This document shows positions 24,457 to 29,752 of a DNA stretch of 64,000 nt, piece by piece. The notes under the pieces are model-generated. The model was not told the origin of the DNA. It searched no databases and saw only the letters and a list, made by a program, of their open reading frames with translations. The number at the start of each line of letters is the position of its first letter. Within the stretch, counting starts at the first letter, position 1. Where the stretch lies: NCBI RefSeq assembly GCF_054482525.1, contig NZ_JBTHVG010000004.1; one strand, written 5' to 3'. A program made the translations under genes and the position numbers. Origin of the DNA: a plasmid.

Positions 24457-24788
24457 CCGCCGGCTCCGCTTTTACCCGGCCATGCGGGGCATGGCCTTGT
24501 GGGTTTTCAGTTATGTGGCCTCAGCGTCGTGTGCGGGCTGTGCCGTGCCTCCATCGTAGCCGGGCTTCTGCGGGCGGGTTGCAAGGTAAGGTGAACCGCT
24601 GCGGTCACCCGGTCCCTCCTTCCCGTCCGCCGTGATTTTCCGGTCGTTCACCCGCTCAGATTTCGCGGTCTCACCCTCCAACTCCCGCCAGCCGTGTGCG
24701 TCAGGCTGCGGCTTCCCTTGCGCCCTTGCAACCCTGCAGGCCCGGCAAAGATGGAGGCACGGCACCGCCCGGTGTCGCAGAACATGTG
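24457..24788 (+). promoter_or_regulatory. Leading-region repeat family A copy 2 (ssi/Frpo-like) upstream of ardA
   Basis: near-identical to 17508-17842. Confidence 0.5.
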
Positions 24789-24806: not shown

Positions 24807-25307
24807 ATGTCTGTTGTTGCACCTGCTGTATACGTTGGAACCTGGCACAAATACAACTGTGGAAGCATCGCCGGACGCTGGTTTGACCTGACCACGTTTG
24901 ATGATGAGCGCGACTTTTTCGCCGCCTGCCGTGCTCTTCACCAGGATGAAGCCGATCCTGAACTGATGTTTCAGGATTATGAGGGATTCCCGGGGAATAT
25001 GGCCTCTGAATGCCATATCAACTGGGCCTGGGTTGAAGGCTTCCGCCAGGCACGGGATGAAGGCTGCGAAGAGGCTTATCGTCTCTGGGTGGAGGATACC
25101 GGTGAGACGGATTTTGACACCTTCCGCGATGCCTGGTGGGGCGAGGCTGACAGTGAGGAGGCTTTTGCGGTTGAGTTCGCCAGTGATACCGGCCTGCTGG
25201 CTGACGTGCCGGAGACGGTGGCGCTCTATTTTGACTATGAGGCGTATGCGCGGGATTTATTCCTGGACTCCTTCACCTTTATTGACGGTCATGTGTTCCG
25301 TCGGTGA
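24807..25307 (+). CDS. ardA: Anti-restriction protein ArdA (DNA mimic)
   Basis: 166 aa from internal Met (MSVVAPAVYVGTWHKYN..); very acidic; matches ArdA as recalled. Confidence 0.9.
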   Translation: MSVVAPAVYVGTWHKYNCGSIAGRWFDLTTFDDERDFFAACRALHQDEADPELMFQDYEGFPGNMASECHINWAWVEGFRQARDEGCEEAYRLWVEDTGETDFDTFRDAWWGEADSEEAFAVEFASDTGLLADVPETVALYFDYEAYARDLFLDSFTFIDGHVFRR

Positions 25308-25354
25308 TTTACTCCCCCGCTCCGGCGGGGGTATGGCCTGCCAGGCCGCCGGAA

Positions 25355-26030
25355 AACCCTGGCAGGCTTACGCCTGCCTGAAATGCAGGAGGGCCGCGCC
25401 TGCGGCGCTGCCCTTCCTGCCCGTCATGGTGTGAGGCATTTTTCTGTTATGTCGTTTCTGTTGTTCTGATTTCCGGAGGCGGGGACACCTTCGGCTCCCG
25501 GCTGCCTGGCGGCATCCGGTCGTCAGGCCCGACTCCGACAGGCAGCTGCTGGCGCACCCGCCAGTCTCCGCCGAACCCGCTGGCGCGGTTTCGGGCTGCC
25601 GCTACGGTCCGATGTCTGAAAAACCAGGCTTGCAGCGACCGTTCCGGTCGCGCCGCCCCTGTCGCGCCGGAAACGGCGCTCCCTGCACACCTGACGGTGT
25701 GTAAGGCCACTGCGCCTGATGGCGCAGTCAACCCTTCCGCCGCCACCCCTGCGGCCTGTTTCCCGCTGTGGACTTTCCGGGGGCTGGAGTAACCACATCC
25801 CGTTTCAGCAGTCCAGGGGAAGATATACCGTCCACAAAATTTTTAGCCATAAACCCGGCAAAAAATTTTGCGTCCGCCCCCGGACAGCTGCCCCGTGACG
25901 TGGTGACGGACGCCCCATCGGAAAGGTCCACTGCGGGGAGAAACCCCGAAGAAGTGGACGGCAGAAGGGGCTTTCGCCCCTCCGGGGAGCAACCGGTCGG
26001 CCCGGCGACCTGATTCAGCAGAAGGAGACG
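25355..26030 (+). promoter_or_regulatory. Leading-region repeat family B copy 2
   Basis: long identity with 18975-19700; ends just upstream of ORF 26036. Confidence 0.5.
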
Positions 26031-26035
26031 TTTTC

Positions 26036-26470
26036 ATGACTGTCAGCAGCACGATTTCCGTTTTTTGCCGCGACGGGGTGTTCCGTACCGTTTACTGCCA
26101 CCTGCACGGTGAGCCGACCTGGAACGGTCGCATCCTGCATACCCACTATGCCACCGGTCAGCAGGCCGAAGCCCTGGTTGAACACGGTGATATCCGTTGC
26201 CTCGGTCCCCGTTGCGACAAACCCGCCGGGCATACGCTTCAGAACCCGGTGGACGGTGTGACGGCTTATTACGGACGTGACAGTGGTTTCCGGATGGACA
26301 GTGAGGCGCGTGAGTACCGTTCTTTCAGGGAGGCTATTGCCACTGAAAGCACTGAAGAGGTGCGCTTCCATTATGTGTTCATCGACGGCTACTGGAAGGT
26401 GATGTACCGCACGCCGGAAGGCTGGAAGATGAAAGCGCTCGCGCTGGCACTGCGTCGCTGTCCGAAATGA
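26036..26470 (+). CDS. Hypothetical protein immediately downstream of repeat B copy 2
   Basis: 144 aa; SD ggagacgttttcATG. Confidence 0.5.
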   Translation: MTVSSTISVFCRDGVFRTVYCHLHGEPTWNGRILHTHYATGQQAEALVEHGDIRCLGPRCDKPAGHTLQNPVDGVTAYYGRDSGFRMDSEAREYRSFREAIATESTEEVRFHYVFIDGYWKVMYRTPEGWKMKALALALRRCPK

Positions 26471-26562
26471 AAAAAGGCAGGGCGATAAACCCTGCCTCTC
26501 TCCGCCGGCGCTTCCCCGCCAGGAAGTCCGGCATCTCAATCACTATCTATGGAGATTATGCC

Positions 26563-26829
26563 ATGAGACCATCAATTATCTTCGCAACCGCCGAGTATGT
26601 AAAGCGTCTGCGTGAAGAGTGCCTGCGGGAGAATAAACCCCTGCACCGCCATACCCGCTTCAGACGTCAGGAGCTGGCACAGGATGAGATTAACCCGGAC
26701 GTCCTGGCGATGAGCGGCCATATCGCCAGACGCTGCAGTGAGCAGAAGCGGGTGCGTATCCCCGCTATGAAAGTCAGCGAATGGGGCCACCTGCTCCGCG
26801 CGCTTGAAATTGAGCGGGTCTGCCACTGA
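26563..26829 (+). CDS. Hypothetical small protein
   Basis: start at internal Met (MRPSIIF..) preceded by ggag. Confidence 0.4.
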   Translation: MRPSIIFATAEYVKRLREECLRENKPLHRHTRFRRQELAQDEINPDVLAMSGHIARRCSEQKRVRIPAMKVSEWGHLLRALEIERVCH

Positions 26830-26893
26830 TTAACCCTTGCCGTCTGCCTGTGCAGGCGGCAGGATACGTTCAGACATCTCACCAGGAGGAACC

Positions 26894-27784
26894 GTGAGTA
26901 AGAAGAAAACCACCACGACGCCCACGCCGCATGATGCCGCGTTCCGGTCGTTCCTGGCGAATCCCGACGTCGCCAGAGATTTTCTGGAACTGCATCTTCC
27001 GGCGGAGTACCGGCAGTTGTGCGACCTGTCCACGCTGAAGCTGGAACCCGCCACCTTTGTTGAGCCGGACCTGCATCAGTACGCCAGCGATATCCTCTGG
27101 AGTGTGAAAACCACCGGGGGTGAAGACGGCTATGTTTATACGCTCATCGAGCACCAGAGCACCGAAAATCTGTACATGCCTTTCCGCATGTTACGTTACA
27201 GTGTGGCGGCGATGCAGAGACATCTGGAGCAGCACAAAACGTTGCCACTGGTGATTCCTGTGCTGTTCTATCATGGTGAGCGCAGCCCGTACCCGTACAG
27301 CATGAACTGGCTGGACTGTTTTGAGAATCCGGCACTTGCGGCTAAAATATACACAAAGCCGTTTCCGCTGGTTGATATCACTGTCGTTGATGACAATGAA
27401 ATCATGAACCATCGCCGGATGGCCGCACTGACGCTGCTGATGAAGCATATCCGCCATCGTGACATGATGGATCTGCTGGACAAACTCCCGCAGGTCATGG
27501 TGGAAATTTCAGACGAGCAGGTGCGTGTTCTGATTCATTACATCGTTAACGCAGGGGACTCTGTATCACCGGAATTTATGCGGGCGCTGGCTGAGCGTCT
27601 GCCGCAGCATGAGGATAAACTGATGACTATCGCAGAACGTCTTGAGCAAAAAGGTCGCCAGGAAGGAGCGCTTGAAAAAGCCCTGGCTATTGCGTGCCAG
27701 CTTCAGAAAATGGGGATGACGCCGGAGCAGATTAAGCAGGCTACCGGACTTTCCGAAGCTGAACTGAAAAAAATCATTCACTGA
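26894..27784 (+). CDS. Rpn-family (YhgA-like, PD-(D/E)XK Transposase_31) recombination-promoting nuclease
   Basis: GTG start after SD aggagg; N-terminal ..HDAAFRSFL.. and ..YTLIEHQS.. motifs typical of Rpn/YhgA proteins. Confidence 0.7.
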   Translation: MSKKKTTTTPTPHDAAFRSFLANPDVARDFLELHLPAEYRQLCDLSTLKLEPATFVEPDLHQYASDILWSVKTTGGEDGYVYTLIEHQSTENLYMPFRMLRYSVAAMQRHLEQHKTLPLVIPVLFYHGERSPYPYSMNWLDCFENPALAAKIYTKPFPLVDITVVDDNEIMNHRRMAALTLLMKHIRHRDMMDLLDKLPQVMVEISDEQVRVLIHYIVNAGDSVSPEFMRALAERLPQHEDKLMTIAERLEQKGRQEGALEKALAIACQLQKMGMTPEQIKQATGLSEAELKKIIH

Positions 27785-27796
27785 TGAGAGCATCAC

Positions 27797-27822
27797 AGCC
27801 CGGCAAAATGCCGGGCTTTTTT
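27797..27822 (+). terminator. Rho-independent terminator-like hairpin after rpn
   Basis: agcccggca-aaa-tgccgggct followed by tttttt. Confidence 0.5.
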
Positions 27823-27846
27823 GTCAGCAGGAGCAGAGAAAACAGT

Positions 27847-28041
27847 ATGACGCTTGCAGAACGTCTTATACAGAAAGGTTTCGACGAAGGTTTTAAAGAA
27901 GGTTTTAAGAAAGGTGCGCTTGAAGTGGCGCGGGAAGCAGCCTGCCGGCTGCGGGATATGGGCTGGACGCCGGAACGGATTCAGGAGGCGACCGGACTTT
28001 CCGGTGAAGAACTGAAAAAGCTGTTTCCTGATGAGCAGTAG
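27847..28041 (+). CDS. Small protein resembling the C-terminal domain of the upstream Rpn nuclease
   Basis: MTLAERLIQKG...WTPERIQEATGLSGEELKKL aligns with Rpn C-terminus MTIAERLEQKG...MTPEQIKQATGLSEAELKKI. Confidence 0.45.
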   Translation: MTLAERLIQKGFDEGFKEGFKKGALEVAREAACRLRDMGWTPERIQEATGLSGEELKKLFPDEQ

Positions 28042-28071
28042 CCTGACATTCTGCCAGGCTGTGAATCACGC

Positions 28072-28323
28072 TCACACATTCCCTGCCGTTTCCCCCAGTT
28101 CATTTTCCAGACGCCTGATGATATCTGCCTTGCGCATCCCCTGCATGTGAGGCAGCAGGTCACGGACTGAAAGTGCCTGGGTGGTCCTCCAGACGGTGAC
28201 GTCCACCTGTTCCGCATTTTCCCAGGCGTGCCATGTTCTCTGCGTCACGCCAAATTCTCTGGCCGCTTTTTCGCGTGACCATAGCATGCTTTTTCGCCAG
28301 ATTCGCAGTTCCCAGCCGGTCAT
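28072..28323 (-). CDS. HTH (Cro/XRE-like) DNA-binding protein
   Basis: 83 aa; ..REKAAREFGVTQRTWHAWE.. HTH; palindromic operators upstream. Confidence 0.55.
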   Translation of the reverse strand: MTGWELRIWRKSMLWSREKAAREFGVTQRTWHAWENAEQVDVTVWRTTQALSVRDLLPHMQGMRKADIIRRLENELGETAGNV

Positions 28324-28337
28324 AAAACACCTTTGAA

Positions 28338-28425
28338 AAAGTGAAAAAACTTCACTTTATTTTATCATCACAATTGCCAAATCAGCGCGATAAATAAGTG
28401 TAAAAAAGTGAAGAAATTTCACTTT
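28338..28425. promoter_or_regulatory. Two copies of palindrome AAAGTGAA-N-TTCACTTT upstream of HTH gene (operator candidates)
   Basis: aaagtgaaaaaacttcacttt at about 28338-28358 and aaagtgaagaaatttcacttt at about 28405-28425. Confidence 0.5.
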
Positions 28426-28545
28426 TTTTGTTTGTAAGTGTCGTGCGGTTTTCTCTGTTTTCACCTGTGCGGGAGTGGTGTGCCAGTGACCACCACATGC
28501 CATTGTTGTGCCGTCGTTTTTCTTCAGTCGCGCCGGATGCGGCGC

Positions 28546-28895
28546 TCCCTGCACACCTTACGGTGTGTAAGGCCACTGCGCCTGATGGCGCAGCTGTCTC
28601 TTGCCTGTCTGCCGCCGCACTGCGGCCTGTTCTCCGCAGACGGACTTTCCGGGGGTACATACACGACCACATCCCGTTTCAGTCGTCCAGGGGAGAGATG
28701 TACCAGCCACAAAACTTTTTGCCGCTGGCGTCAAAAACTTTTGCGTCTGCCCCCGGACAACTGCCCCGTGACGTGGTGAGCGTCCCCCGTCGGAAAGGTC
28801 CACTGCGGGGAAATACCCTAAGACCCGGACGGCAGAAGGAGCTTCGCTCCTCCGGGAAATGACCTGGCTGACCCGGCAGTCGTGACGATGAGGAG
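28546..28895 (+). promoter_or_regulatory. Leading-region repeat family B, partial copy 3
   Basis: matches the 3' two-thirds of copies at 18975-19700 and 25355-26030. Confidence 0.45.
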
Positions 28896-28900
28896 ACAAT

Positions 28901-29752
28901 GTGATGAATCAGACTTTACCCACTGCTGACCTGAATACTGCCGGCACGACAGATGTTATTCCGTCTGTGGCTATCGACCGCATCATCGCGCAGCGTAACG
29001 AAGGTATTGCACTATTCATGCAGGCGATGGAATGCCTGGCGACAGCGCGCAGGATTCTGCTCGATGCGTCAGGTGATATTTTTCTTTACGGGTTTGAAGA
29101 CTGCGTGACTGATTCCGTTCGTCGCATGGATAAGCCGGAAGAAGCGAAAAGGAATATCACCCGTCTTGCCGACCGGAAAATCTGGGACCGCCTGATGACA
29201 GATACGGGCATGTACACCTTCATGAGTTCATGCCAGCGTGATGAGTGGAACAGCCAGCTGATGAGCGACACCTGTCCTGAAATCACCCTGGACAATGTAC
29301 TGGCAACATTCCGCCATCTTAATACCAGCAAGATGCAGACGTTTGAACAGGGACTGATTGATGTCTACCGGAAATTGTCATGGGATTACAGAACCAATAA
29401 TCCCTGCCGTCTGGGCAAGAAAATCATTATTGAAAACATGCTGTACCGCTGGAGTAACGGGCGTGTGACGCTGGACTGCAGCGGACGGGAGGCACTGGAT
29501 GACCTGGTACGTCCTTTTTATCTGCTGGAGGGGCGAAACGTTCCTGACTTCCGGAGCAGCATCGGGGCGCAGTATGGTGAATTTCTCGGGAACGGCGACA
29601 ACGTCGGTAAGCTGTTAGAAGGGGAATATTTTACGGTGCGTGGCTACCAGAAAGGGACCGTACACATTGTCTTTAAGCGTCCTGACCTTGTTGAAAAACT
29701 GAATGATATTATTGCACGGCATTATCCTGGTGCATTGCCGCCACGAGTCTGA
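28901..29752 (+). CDS. Hypothetical protein, first leading-region gene next to oriT
   Basis: 283 aa; preceded by repeat B copy 3 and SD aggagacaatgtgATG; followed by terminator. Confidence 0.55.
   Translation: MMNQTLPTADLNTAGTTDVIPSVAIDRIIAQRNEGIALFMQAMECLATARRILLDASGDIFLYGFEDCVTDSVRRMDKPEEAKRNITRLADRKIWDRLMTDTGMYTFMSSCQRDEWNSQLMSDTCPEITLDNVLATFRHLNTSKMQTFEQGLIDVYRKLSWDYRTNNPCRLGKKIIIENMLYRWSNGRVTLDCSGREALDDLVRPFYLLEGRNVPDFRSSIGAQYGEFLGNGDNVGKLLEGEYFTVRGYQKGTVHIVFKRPDLVEKLNDIIARHYPGALPPRV

What the first reader, a model, noticed from the sequence alone, without database searches (positions are those of the whole stretch)
26894..28041. Rpn-family nuclease followed by a separate small ORF that copies its own C-terminal domain
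The 296 aa protein has Rpn/YhgA-type N-terminal motifs. About 60 bp downstream is a 64 aa ORF whose sequence (MTLAERLIQKG...WTPERIQEATGLSGEELKKL) aligns with the C-terminus of the nuclease (MTIAERLEQKG...MTPEQIKQATGLSEAELKKI). I recall reports that short C-terminal-domain proteins can antagonise toxic Rpn nucleases; here such a product would be made from a duplicated stand-alone gene. The position in an anti-defense-rich leading region adds interest. A terminator-like hairpin sits between the two ORFs, so expression of the small one is uncertain.
Basis: partly seen in the sequence, partly recalled or inferred. Interest (0 to 1): 0.6.

Follow-up and report, generated by a model that had tools for sequence, protein, structure and literature searches.

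The report
Rpn nuclease with orphan antitoxin copy
This is the Rpn nuclease toxin-antitoxin/phage-defence gene of IncI-type conjugative plasmids followed by a second, free-standing copy of its antitoxin domain; that arrangement was published in 2023, so the finding is real but mostly known, although what this downstream copy does is still untested.

Summary
A 296-aa Rpn (YhgA-like) nuclease gene (26894-27784) is followed, after a 62-nt spacer holding a terminator hairpin, by a 64-aa ORF (27847-28041) homologous to its C-terminal domain (56% identity, E 1e-16).

The window is the leading region of an IncI-type plasmid. This rpn is an allele of RpnP2, the plasmid Rpn characterised by Zhong et al. 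2023 (PNAS); their primers and gBlock match the window exactly. That paper already describes the intragenic antitoxin RpnS and free-standing downstream copies ("RpnSs", such as ypaA).

What I add:
- The small ORF looks like a real, selected gene. ATG is present in 117/117 loci, pN/pS is 0.23, and about 2,090 plasmids match it over at least 80% of its length.
- Its first helix varies in 4-aa steps (52-76 aa).
- It stays the same family while the nuclease's C-terminal module swaps among three types.
- Its helix length equals the neighbour's in only 1 of 38 haplotype combinations.
- Some plasmids carry three cassettes.
- The published RpnP2 constructs truncated this ORF yet were non-toxic.

So it is not the main antitoxin. 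It is probably an insulated orphan paralog.

The parts
25661..25946 (-). ssi/Frpo-like element upstream of the operon that contains rpn. A second copy lies at 28527-28818. It is predicted to act as a single-strand DNA promoter on the transferred (-) strand.
   Evidence: Direct-repeat families D2, D3, D5, D6 and D7, spaced about 2870 nt apart. The - strand of 25640-25960 folds as ssDNA at -97.4 kcal/mol, z -7.9. The class is described for IncI1 plasmids in PMC12672017. Function here is inferred.
26894..27784 (+). rpn (RpnL), a 296-aa PD-(D/E)xK nuclease toxin. It is an allele of the published plasmid RpnP2 with a 'type A' C-terminal module.
   Evidence: PF04754 E 4.9e-78 and TIGR01784 at 177 bits. 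The catalytic motifs PHDA (12), SDILW (65) and IEHQS (85) are present; these are the residues mutated in the published inactive RpnP2 gBlock AO730. The first ~540 nt are 96-100% identical per 60-nt block to the RpnP2-type allele. Published primer AO739 and the first 316 nt of gBlock AO591 match the window exactly.
27321..27348 (+). Promoter-like site inside rpn (TTGAGA-16-TAAAAT). It is a candidate internal promoter for the short rpnS transcript.
   Evidence: Consensus scan, 10 of 12 matches. Internal transcription start sites are reported for the five E. coli K-12 rpn genes. Not verified for this gene.
27611..27625 (+). Internal translation start: SD GAGGA (27611-27615), a 7-nt spacer, then ATG 27623.
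   Evidence: Read from the sequence. The context CGCAGCATGAGGATAAACTGATG is present in 88 of 108 related loci. The homologous SD and ATG are the bases replaced in the published RpnP2L* gBlock AO714.
27623..27784 (+). Intragenic rpnS: a 53-aa antitoxin in frame with the C-terminus of RpnL. It carries one RQEG repeat.
   Evidence: Matches the RpnA-S crystal-structure chain 7TH0 starting at M244. Repeat number at this position varies from 0 to 6 among related plasmids.
27797..27823 (+). Intrinsic-terminator hairpin (AGCCCGGCA AAA TGCCGGGCT) followed by a T6 run, lying between rpn and the small ORF.
   Evidence: The stem is kept in 39 spacer variants, including a compensatory longer form AAAAGGCCCGG/CCGGGCCTTTT. 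The same spacer precedes the stand-alone type-A cassettes in three-cassette plasmids.
27829..27833 (+). SD-like AGGAG, 13 nt upstream of the small ORF's ATG. This spacing is longer than optimal.
   Evidence: Read from the sequence. The surrounding string GCAGGAGCAGA is conserved in about 105 of 117 loci.
27847..28041 (+). Free-standing RpnS-type gene (RpnSs, 'Ss'), 64 aa. Predicted as a three-helix domain with a long first helix. The last six residues arise from a 1-nt deletion relative to the rpn 3' end.
   Evidence: pN/pS is 0.23 over non-repeat codons. ATG is present in 117/117 loci. In a tblastn search, 2092 of 2100 plasmid records have a match covering at least 80% of the ORF. AF2 model: pLDDT 74, helices 3-37, 42-49 and 53-59. 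A profile of the family hits 7TH0 at E 1.3e-10.
27872..27915 (+). 12-nt tandem repeat (AAGGTTTTAAAG-like) encoding the F-D/K-E/K-G units of helix 1. This is the hypervariable part.
   Evidence: Tandem Repeats Finder: period 12, 2.8-3.7 copies. Homologs have 0-6 units, giving 52, 56, 60, 64, 68, 72 or 76 aa.

Best explanation
This locus is the rpnP toxin-antitoxin/phage-defence module of I-complex conjugative plasmids.

The 296-aa RpnL is a PD-(D/E)xK DNA endonuclease. It is kept inactive by RpnS, a 53-aa protein translated from an internal start in the same frame (ATG 27623). RpnS pairs with the identical C-terminal domain of RpnL. For the allelic RpnP2 this was shown experimentally; for this allele it is inferred by homology.

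The 64-aa ORF downstream is a free-standing paralog of that antitoxin domain, of the published 'RpnSs' kind. It most likely arose when the cassette [SD - RpnS ORF - stop - terminator hairpin] was duplicated, or when a new C-terminal module was inserted in front of the old one. Three-cassette plasmids show the process can repeat.

The small ORF is a selected, translated gene, probably expressed at a low level by read-through of the conserved terminator. It is not the primary antitoxin. It stays the same family while the neighbour's C-terminal module swaps among three types. It has no full-length Rpn partner with a matching domain in the databases searched. Its helix-1 length almost never equals that of its neighbour.

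I infer that it is an insulated orphan RpnS-type dimer with its own role, either auxiliary or acting in trans. Rough sub-confidences: identity of the locus and origin of the cassette about 0.9; Ss translated and under selection about 0.75; Ss not the cognate antitoxin of the adjacent nuclease about 0.65.
For: - Identity with published RpnP2: primer AO739 and the first 316 nt of gBlock AO591 match the window exactly, and the gBlock AO714 core is exact in L015-L019. The N-domain is 96-100% identical per block.
- Published function of RpnL/RpnS and of RpnSs.
- Internal start conserved, at the position that was mutated experimentally.
- The intragenic RpnS is sufficient: RpnP2LS constructs that stop at Ss codon 13 grew like the vector, while RpnP2L* was toxic.
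- Ss is under selection: pN/pS 0.23, ATG in 117/117 loci, and 2092/2100 plasmid records with a tblastn match over at least 80% of the ORF. About 25% of complete E. coli genomes carry the region, almost always on plasmids.
- RpnS-like fold and family.
- Hypervariable 4-aa repeats.
- The same Ss family sits behind type A, B and C modules.
- No full-length Rpn with an Ss-type C-terminus was found.
- Helix-1 length is equal in 1 of 38 distinct combinations against 5.1 expected (P 0.024), with Spearman rho -0.43. For type A alone rho is -0.52, p 0.008.
- Repeat numbers change many times on identical non-repeat haplotypes.
- Cassette unit and three-cassette arrays.
Against: - There are no expression data for this ORF.
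- A strong terminator lies directly upstream and no promoter-like site lies between.
- The AGGAG is 13 nt from the ATG, which is suboptimal.
- The rule that repeat numbers must match rests on one published experiment with RpnC. It may not transfer to this pair, which shares 56-60% identity and could still cross-bind.
- The depletion of equal lengths is modest. It is not significant for type A alone (1 observed vs 3.5 expected, P 0.115).
- The loci are related rather than independent, and one haplotype does have equal lengths (L064, L065).
- The Foldseek match to 7TH0 is not statistically significant.
- In E. coli K-12 the analogous ypaA is annotated as a pseudogene in RefSeq.
Confidence: 0.6

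Rival explanations
1. The stand-alone small protein is the antagonist (antitoxin) of the adjacent nuclease. It binds the nuclease's C-terminal domain and holds it inactive, either as a second dose or as a separately regulated dose of antitoxin.
For: Ss is homologous to the RpnS domain and lies directly downstream on the same strand. Published RpnS proteins block RpnL, and free-standing RpnSs copies exist and are expressed (YpaA). Type A is the closest relative of Ss, at 56-60% identity.
Against: The intragenic RpnS is sufficient in constructs lacking an intact Ss. Ss does not co-vary with the type of the neighbour's C-terminal module. Helix-1 length differs in 37 of 38 combinations, and a one-repeat difference abolished neutralisation for RpnC. 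RpnAS and RpnBS do not cross-protect.
Confidence: 0.2
2. The small ORF is a decaying leftover of a duplication or module replacement. It has no function of its own and persists only because the event is recent and 12-nt slippage preserves the frame.
For: The terminator directly upstream and the poor SD spacing. K-12 ypaA is flagged as a pseudogene in RefSeq. Ss is dispensable for tolerating rpn. One related plasmid has rpn and no Ss (L045).
Against: The copy is about 28% diverged at DNA level from the rpn 3' end, so the duplication is not recent. Even so, pN/pS is 0.23, with 10 of 18 variable codons purely synonymous. The start codon is kept in 117/117 loci, and about 2,090 plasmids match the ORF over at least 80% of its length.
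Confidence: 0.1
3. Orphan antitoxin acting in trans as an anti-defence or competition factor. Ss would be made early from the entering strand and would neutralise Rpn-type nucleases of the recipient or of rival plasmids.
For: The gene lies about 2.4 kb from nikA/oriT and points toward oriT, like the other leading-region genes, downstream of an ssi/Frpo-like element. Orphan antitoxins are reported as enriched in leading regions and proposed to counter host or rival TA defences (PMC11541004). Ss is constant across I-complex plasmids while the cis nuclease module varies.
Against: No full-length Rpn with an Ss-type C-terminal domain above ~60% identity was found in plasmids or in the 1.8-billion-protein representative library. 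Published RpnS action is allele-specific. The terminator limits expression.
Confidence: 0.1
4. Silent-cassette reservoir. The downstream copies serve mainly as DNA donors for swapping the nuclease's C-terminal module by recombination between the conserved flanks (MTIAERL... and ...TGLSxxELKK).
For: The rpn alleles are mosaic, with breakpoints at the domain boundary (about nt 540) and just after the internal start (about nt 740). Cassettes share the same spacer, and arrays of two or three occur. [quoted passage not shown]
Against: No allele with an Ss-type module fused to the N-domain was seen in 117 loci or ~2,100 plasmids. Purifying selection at the protein level together with a conserved start codon argues for a translated product.
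Confidence: 0.08

Closest known systems
RpnP2 L/S of the E. coli ECOR13 plasmid (Zhong et al. 2023, PNAS, PMC10400941)
   Same: It is the same locus. The 300 bp upstream and the start of the gene are identical to the published gBlock, and the N-terminal nuclease domain is 96-100% identical. The internal SD and ATG sit at the same place, in the same leading-region position. Published properties: RpnL is toxic, RpnS is the antitoxin, and the system protects against T-even phages.
   Different: The window carries a different C-terminal module, type A with one RQEG repeat instead of type B with three IQQG repeats, diverging from about residue 185. The published constructs stop 101 bp after rpn, so they lack an intact downstream ORF, and the ECOR13 deletion leaves it in place. 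The small ORF of this locus was therefore not tested.
RpnSs, free-standing downstream RpnS copies: YpaA/RpnESs after rpnE and RpnCSs after rpnC in E. coli (same paper)
   Same: A small gene immediately downstream of rpn on the same strand, homologous to the neighbour's C-terminal domain and varying by 4-aa repeats. In K-12, YpaA also differs from RpnE's C-terminus by one repeat (KLEG).
   Different: Here a conserved 58-62-nt spacer with a terminator hairpin separates the genes. In K-12 the spacer is 12 nt with a good SD. The copy is much more diverged from its neighbour (56% identity). It is kept unchanged behind three different neighbour modules, and up to two free-standing cassettes occur in a row. 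Expression has been shown for YpaA but not for this ORF.
Orphan antitoxins in plasmid leading regions (Samuel et al. 2024, Nature, PMC11541004)
   Same: An antitoxin-type gene without a matching toxin domain, located in the leading region and pointing toward oriT like the other leading-region genes, close to ssDNA-promoter-like elements.
   Different: A related toxin with its own built-in antitoxin sits right next to it. No target for trans action is known. The paper's main text does not mention YhgA or Transposase_31.

Membership tests
Rpn / YhgA-like nucleases (Pfam PF04754, PD-(D/E)xK) | N-terminal Transposase_31/YhgA domain | tested here: met
   PF04754 E 4.9e-78 over residues 11-207. TIGR01784 scores 177 bits against a cut-off of 52.
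Rpn / YhgA-like nucleases (Pfam PF04754, PD-(D/E)xK) | Catalytic residues of the PD-(D/E)xK site | tested here: met
   Motifs PHDA (12), SDILW (65) and IEHQS (85) are present. The D, D, E and Q in these motifs are the residues changed in the published inactive RpnP2 gBlock AO730.
Rpn / YhgA-like nucleases (Pfam PF04754, PD-(D/E)xK) | DNA endonuclease activity and toxicity when made without RpnS | not testable with these tools
   Published for RpnA and for the allelic RpnP2. Inferred for this allele from the nearly identical N-domain.
RpnS intragenic antitoxin | Internal in-frame start with a ribosome-binding site in front of the C-terminal domain | tested here: met
   GAGGA-N7-ATG at 27611-27625. 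Conserved in related loci. Homologous to the bases mutated in the published RpnP2L* construct.
RpnS intragenic antitoxin | Three-helix domain homologous to the RpnA-S crystal structure (7TH0) | tested here: met
   phmmer of the Rpn protein hits 7TH0 from M244, E 0.0094.
RpnS intragenic antitoxin | Number of 4-aa repeats in helix 1 varies among strains | tested here: met
   Type A has 0-6 RQEG/RMEG units. Types B and C vary as well.
RpnS intragenic antitoxin | Internal promoter giving a short transcript | tested here: inconclusive
   One promoter-like site lies inside rpn at 27321-27348. No transcript data are available.
RpnSs (free-standing downstream RpnS copy) | Separate small gene directly downstream of rpn on the same strand, homologous to the RpnS domain | tested here: met
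   An HMM built from the family alignment finds only these two modules in the 64-kb window.
RpnSs (free-standing downstream RpnS copy) | Derived from its own upstream rpn rather than from another rpn lineage | tested here: inconclusive
   The closest non-Ss relatives are the type A modules of this same locus, at 56-62% identity, and DNA homology includes the SD region and the stop. However, divergence is high and no tree was built.
RpnSs (free-standing downstream RpnS copy) | Varies by 4-aa repeats | tested here: met
   Lengths of 52, 56, 60, 64, 68, 72 and 76 aa. The DNA unit is 12 nt.
RpnSs (free-standing downstream RpnS copy) | Protein is made | not testable with these tools
   Only indirect evidence: pN/pS 0.23 and a conserved ATG. 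YpaA was detected by tagging in the paper.
Cognate antitoxin of the adjacent RpnL | Same repeat number and same module type as the toxin's C-terminal domain (the published specificity rule) | tested here: not met
   In the window the lengths differ by 8 residues. They are equal in 1 of 38 combinations. The Ss family is constant behind A, B and C modules.
Cognate antitoxin of the adjacent RpnL | Required to prevent toxicity | tested here: not met
   From the published constructs: RpnP2LS with Ss truncated at codon 13 is non-toxic. This is an inference from another allele.

The most novel reading that the evidence does not exclude
The free-standing copy is an actively insulated orphan of the antitoxin domain. 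Selection keeps its dimerisation helix at a different length from that of the neighbouring nuclease, so the two do not cross-pair. In this reading it serves a separate purpose. One option is action in trans, early after transfer, against Rpn-type nucleases of recipients or rival I-complex plasmids. Another is a role as a decoy or sensor for whatever factor releases RpnL. The locus would then be an expandable array of antitoxin-domain cassettes rather than a simple toxin-antitoxin pair.
Probability: 0.15. Interest if true: 0.6.

Novelty: new member of a known kind. Interest (0 to 1): 0.35.

Why it matters
About a quarter of complete E. coli genomes, and about 2,000 sequenced I-complex plasmids (major carriers of ESBL genes), hold this locus. 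It is among the first DNA to enter a recipient.

The only experimental work on it (RpnP2) used constructs that cut the downstream gene off. The native module is therefore nuclease, internal antitoxin and a conserved orphan antitoxin-like gene, and it has not been studied as a whole.

If the orphan copy tunes or redirects the system, published phage-defence strengths and toxicity may not reflect the native state. The cassette array, with its mismatched helix lengths, would also be a compact natural system for studying how paralogous dimerisation modules are insulated from one another.

If it does nothing measurable, this is simply one more example of the published RpnSs arrangement.

Tried and rejected
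- The 85-aa reading from ATG 27784, which overlaps the rpn stop in TGATGA and would suggest translational coupling. Rejected because the spacer is 58, 61 or 62 nt in different plasmids, so the frame is not conserved.
- Direct sequence search of Ss against the PDB gave only repeat-driven artefacts (DotG, designed PPR proteins). A family profile was needed to reach 7TH0.
- Foldseek of the AF2 model gave no significant hit. 7TH0 ranked third with the highest probability, 0.80.
- Pfam-A as installed has no HTH_Rpn_C model. Ss got only a spurious Yae1_N hit on the repeats.
- PADLOC has no model for Rpn or Ss.
- Rfam found nothing in 25300-29000.
- I looked for full-length Rpn proteins carrying an Ss-type C-terminus, as fusion alleles or possible trans targets. 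None turned up in plasmids, in the representative library or in 117 loci.
- The gene-level early-conjugation transcriptome of the IncI1 plasmid pESBL was not available as text, so induction of rpn and Ss on entry could not be checked.
- I did not attempt a linker-fusion AF2 model to test heterodimerisation, because the tool returns no contact or PAE information.
Full report
**1. The observation**

The ORFs are as described.
- The rpn ORF runs from GTG 26894 to TGA 27784 and encodes 296 aa.
- After a 62-nt spacer, a second ORF runs from ATG 27847 to TAG 28041 and encodes 64 aa.

BLASTP of the two proteins aligns residues 244-294 of the nuclease with residues 1-59 of the small ORF. Identity is 56%, E 1e-16, with one 8-residue gap.

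At DNA level the copy is 72-75% identical. The homology starts about 20 nt upstream of the ATG, so it includes the ribosome-binding region. It runs just past the stop, where CTGATGAG is shared. A 1-nt deletion in an A-run gives the small ORF its own six-residue tail.

The nuclease is a clear Rpn/YhgA protein. PF04754 scores E 4.9e-78, and TIGR01784 scores 177 bits against a cut-off of 52. The small ORF matches only the last 56 positions of that model.

The hairpin between the two is a textbook intrinsic terminator: 9 bp with 7 G-C pairs, a 3-nt loop and a T6 run. An HMM built from the family alignment finds only these two RpnS-like modules in the whole 64-kb window.

**2. Where the window comes from**

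The region is identical or near-identical in about 2,040 plasmid records. Most are conjugative MOBP/MPF_I plasmids typed IncI1, IncI-gamma, IncK, IncB/O or IncZ, from Escherichia, Salmonella and Shigella.

It lies in the leading region. The gene order is psiB, psiA, ardA, two small ORFs, rpn, the small ORF, a convergent HTH gene, a DUF4942 gene, then nikA-nikB at oriT.

In complete E. coli genomes, 1,341 of 5,426 hold this stretch. That is 1,435 places on plasmids against 15 on chromosomes.

Two ~290-nt direct repeats bracket the module, at 25661-25946 and 28527-28818. On the - strand the first folds as a long hairpin in single-stranded DNA (-97 kcal/mol, z -7.9). This is the look of the ssi/Frpo single-strand promoters described for IncI1 leading regions (PMC12672017). 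rpn and the small ORF point toward oriT, like the other leading-region genes.

**3. What is already known**

Zhong et al. 2023 (PMC10400941) report the following.
- Full-length Rpn proteins (RpnL) are toxic DNA endonucleases.
- Each rpn gene also makes a small protein, RpnS, from an internal in-frame start. RpnS binds RpnL and blocks it.
- RpnA-S is a dimer of three-helix bundles (PDB 7TH0).
- The first helix carries 4-aa repeats whose number varies among strains.
- Adding one repeat to only one partner abolished neutralisation for RpnC.
[quoted passage not shown] Second copies lie downstream of rpnE (ypaA, named rpnESs; the protein was detected) and downstream of rpnC.

**4. This very locus is the published RpnP2**

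The preprint's Dataset S2 lists the primers and gBlocks. I mapped them onto the window and related loci.
- Deletion primer AO739 equals window 26854-26896.
- The first 316 nt of the RpnP2 gBlock AO591 equal window 26594-26909.
- The core of gBlock AO714 is exact in loci L015-L019.

The window's Rpn and the RpnP2-type allele are 96-100% identical per 60-nt block over the first ~540 nt. From about residue 185 they diverge. The window therefore carries the same nuclease domain with a different C-terminal module.

The catalytic motifs are intact. They contain the residues mutated in the published inactive version.

The internal start is present: GAGGA, 7 nt, then ATG 27623. It sits at the position whose homolog was replaced to make the toxic RpnP2L* construct.

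**5. The published work did not test the small ORF**

The RpnP2 gBlock includes "300 bp upstream and 101 downstream". The reverse primers AO619 and AO738 end at window 27865-27886, which is codon 13 of the small ORF. The ECOR13 deletion removes rpn only, up to the stop codon just before the hairpin.

Cells with RpnP2LS from these constructs grew like the vector control. RpnP2L* without the internal start was strongly toxic. The intragenic RpnS is therefore sufficient, and the downstream ORF is not required to hold the nuclease in check. This is an inference from another allele.

**6. Is the small ORF a real gene?**

I collected 122 related loci from assemblies, plasmid records and one metagenome scan.
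- All 117 loci with a complete copy start with ATG. About 105 of them keep the GCAGGAGCAGA string upstream.
- Over the non-repeat codons of 13 haplotypes, pN/pS is 0.23. Ten of the 18 variable codons are purely synonymous.
- A tblastn search finds it in 2,100 plasmid records. In 2,092 of them a match covers at least 80% of the ORF, and every listed hit is a single piece.
- The copy is about 28% diverged from the rpn 3' end at DNA level, so it is old. An unselected relic of that age should not look this clean.
- A profile of the family hits the RpnA-S structure 7TH0 at E 1.3e-10.
- The AF2 model (pLDDT 74) has a long first helix (3-37) and two short ones (42-49, 53-59).
- Foldseek puts 7TH0 third with the highest probability, but nothing is significant for so small a domain.

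Against expression:
- The terminator lies directly upstream.
- No promoter-like site lies between the two genes.
- The SD-like AGGAG is 13 nt from the ATG.

The most economical reading is low-level expression by read-through.

**7. Hypervariable helix and cassette structure**

The small ORF contains a 12-nt tandem repeat. Homologs have 0 to 6 F-[DK]-[EQK]-G units, which gives 52 to 76 aa in steps of four.

The nuclease's own C-terminal module comes in three types.

| Type | Sequence pattern |
|---|---|
| A | EQKG-[RQEG/RMEG]n-ALEKA |
| B | KQEG-[IQQG]n-ALQKA (the RpnP2 type) |
| C | EQQG-[IQKG/IQQG]n-RMEEK |

Each type has a variable repeat number. The same small-ORF family follows all three.

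The spacer is conserved in 39 variants. It consists of a hairpin (with a compensatory longer-stem version), a T-run, CAGCAGGAGCAGAG and the ATG.

About ten loci have three cassettes: a full-length gene with a B or C module, then a free-standing type A cassette behind the same spacer, then the small ORF.

The unit [SD - RpnS ORF - stop - hairpin] therefore behaves as a cassette that is duplicated, or displaced when a new module is inserted. The rpn alleles are mosaics, with breakpoints at the domain boundary and just after the internal start.

**8. Does the small ORF match its neighbour?**

I measured helix-1 length as the number of residues from the Met to the ALExA or RMEEK motif.
- In 107 loci there are 38 distinct combinations.
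- Lengths are equal in one combination (two loci, L064 and L065).
- Shuffling predicts 5.1 equal combinations (P 0.024) and 13.9 equal loci.
- Lengths are negatively correlated, rho -0.43, p 0.008.
- For type A alone, the closest relative: 1 equal of 25 against 3.5 expected (P 0.115), rho -0.52, p 0.008.
- Repeat numbers change many times on identical non-repeat haplotypes. One neighbour haplotype shows 11 combinations. The combinations therefore reflect many events, but the sample is still not independent. I treat this result as suggestive.
- In K-12, YpaA also has one repeat more than RpnE's C-terminus.

No full-length Rpn with an Ss-type domain above ~60% identity exists in the plasmid collection or in the 1.8-billion-protein representative library.

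By the published specificity rule, the small ORF is not the cognate partner of its neighbour, and it has no known partner elsewhere.

**9. Best explanation and rivals**

The locus is an RpnL/RpnS toxin-antitoxin defence module plus a free-standing RpnSs paralog.
- *Supported by identity with published RpnP2 constructs and by the published RpnL/RpnS mechanism:* the nuclease-plus-internal-antitoxin part.
- *Supported by sequence comparison:* the cassette origin.
- *Inferred from selection signatures:* that the paralog is translated.
- *Inferred from the constructs, the lack of co-variation and the length mismatch:* that it is not the main antitoxin and is insulated from its neighbour.

Its actual role is unknown. 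I consider four rivals.
- A neutral relic.
- A trans-acting orphan antitoxin of the kind proposed for leading regions (PMC11541004).
- A silent cassette reservoir for swapping the nuclease's C-terminal module.

**10. Novelty and score**

The kind is known and the neighbouring nuclease has been characterised experimentally. The finding is therefore a new, so far untested member of the RpnSs class.

The new points are these:
- It is an orphan lineage held constant behind swapping modules.
- Helix lengths are mismatched.
- Plasmids carry two- and three-cassette arrays with a conserved terminator spacer.
- The published constructs truncated it.

Interest is moderate-low (0.35). It would rise if the insulation or a trans function were confirmed.

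Noticed in passing
window 25661-25946 and 28527-28818: Two ~290-nt direct repeats (87-96% identical in blocks) bracket the rpn module. The - strand of the first folds as a long ssDNA hairpin (-97 kcal/mol, z -7.9), like the ssi/Frpo single-strand promoters of IncI1 and F leading regions.
   Followed up: partly
window 24534-24771: Inverted repeat with 32-nt arms, 91% complementary and 174 nt apart, just upstream of ardA (about 24807). It may be the separate class of ssDNA-promoter hairpin reported 5' of ardA in pESBL (PMC12672017).
   Followed up: no
L022, L023, L041, L056, L059, L088, L092, L093, L123 (related plasmids and metagenome contigs): Three-cassette arrays. A full-length rpn with a type B or C module is followed by a free-standing type A RpnS cassette and then the small ORF. 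Each is preceded by the same hairpin-plus-SD spacer.
   Followed up: partly
window 27865-27886, compared with the published primers: The published RpnP2 constructs (gBlock AO591, primers AO619 and AO738) end inside the small ORF at codon 13, and the ECOR13 rpnP2 deletion leaves the small ORF in place. Published toxicity and phage assays were therefore done without an intact downstream gene.
   Followed up: yes
window 27784-27846: Many database records call an 81-93-aa version of the small ORF from an ATG that overlaps the rpn stop (TGATGA). The spacer length (58, 61 or 62 nt) shifts the frame between plasmids, so this extension is not conserved.
   Followed up: yes
window 28072-28323 (-) and 28357-28554 (-); inverted repeat 28336-28427: A convergent HTH_31 gene (83 aa) and a 65-aa ORF lie on the opposite strand to the other leading-region genes. 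A 26-nt-arm inverted repeat sits around the start of the 65-aa ORF. It is unclear whether they are a regulator pair or toxin-antitoxin-like genes.
   Followed up: partly
window 28040-28060: A short inverted repeat (AGCCTG ... CAGGCT) overlaps the small ORF's stop codon. It sits at the position homologous to the terminator hairpin after rpn but has no T-run, so it looks like a decayed copy of the cassette's hairpin. This was read from the sequence only.
   Followed up: no
rpn alleles: window 26894-27784 compared with L015 and L025: The rpn alleles are mosaics. Type B diverges from about nt 540 (the domain boundary). Type C diverges only from about nt 740 (just after the internal start). The N-terminal nuclease domain stays 96-100% identical.
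   Followed up: partly
proteins P0136 (323 aa) and P0147 (296 aa) from the representative library: Proteins from other organisms carry three RpnS-like modules in tandem within a single polypeptide. Many free-standing 50-100-aa homologs with G-x-x-x repeats also exist across the library.
   Followed up: no
RefSeq records H87 and H89 compared with H86 and H88; NC_000913.3 ypaA: Annotation is inconsistent. The same small ORF is 'hypothetical protein' in most records and 'RpnC/YadD family protein' in some. The analogous K-12 ypaA is flagged as a pseudogene, and rpnE is named 'inactive'.
   Followed up: no
window 28901-29752: The DUF4942 protein, the gene nearest oriT on the leading side, matches a phage family annotated as DNA methyltransferase (phrog_6263, E 2.7e-19). 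It is preceded by the second ssi-like repeat.
   Followed up: no
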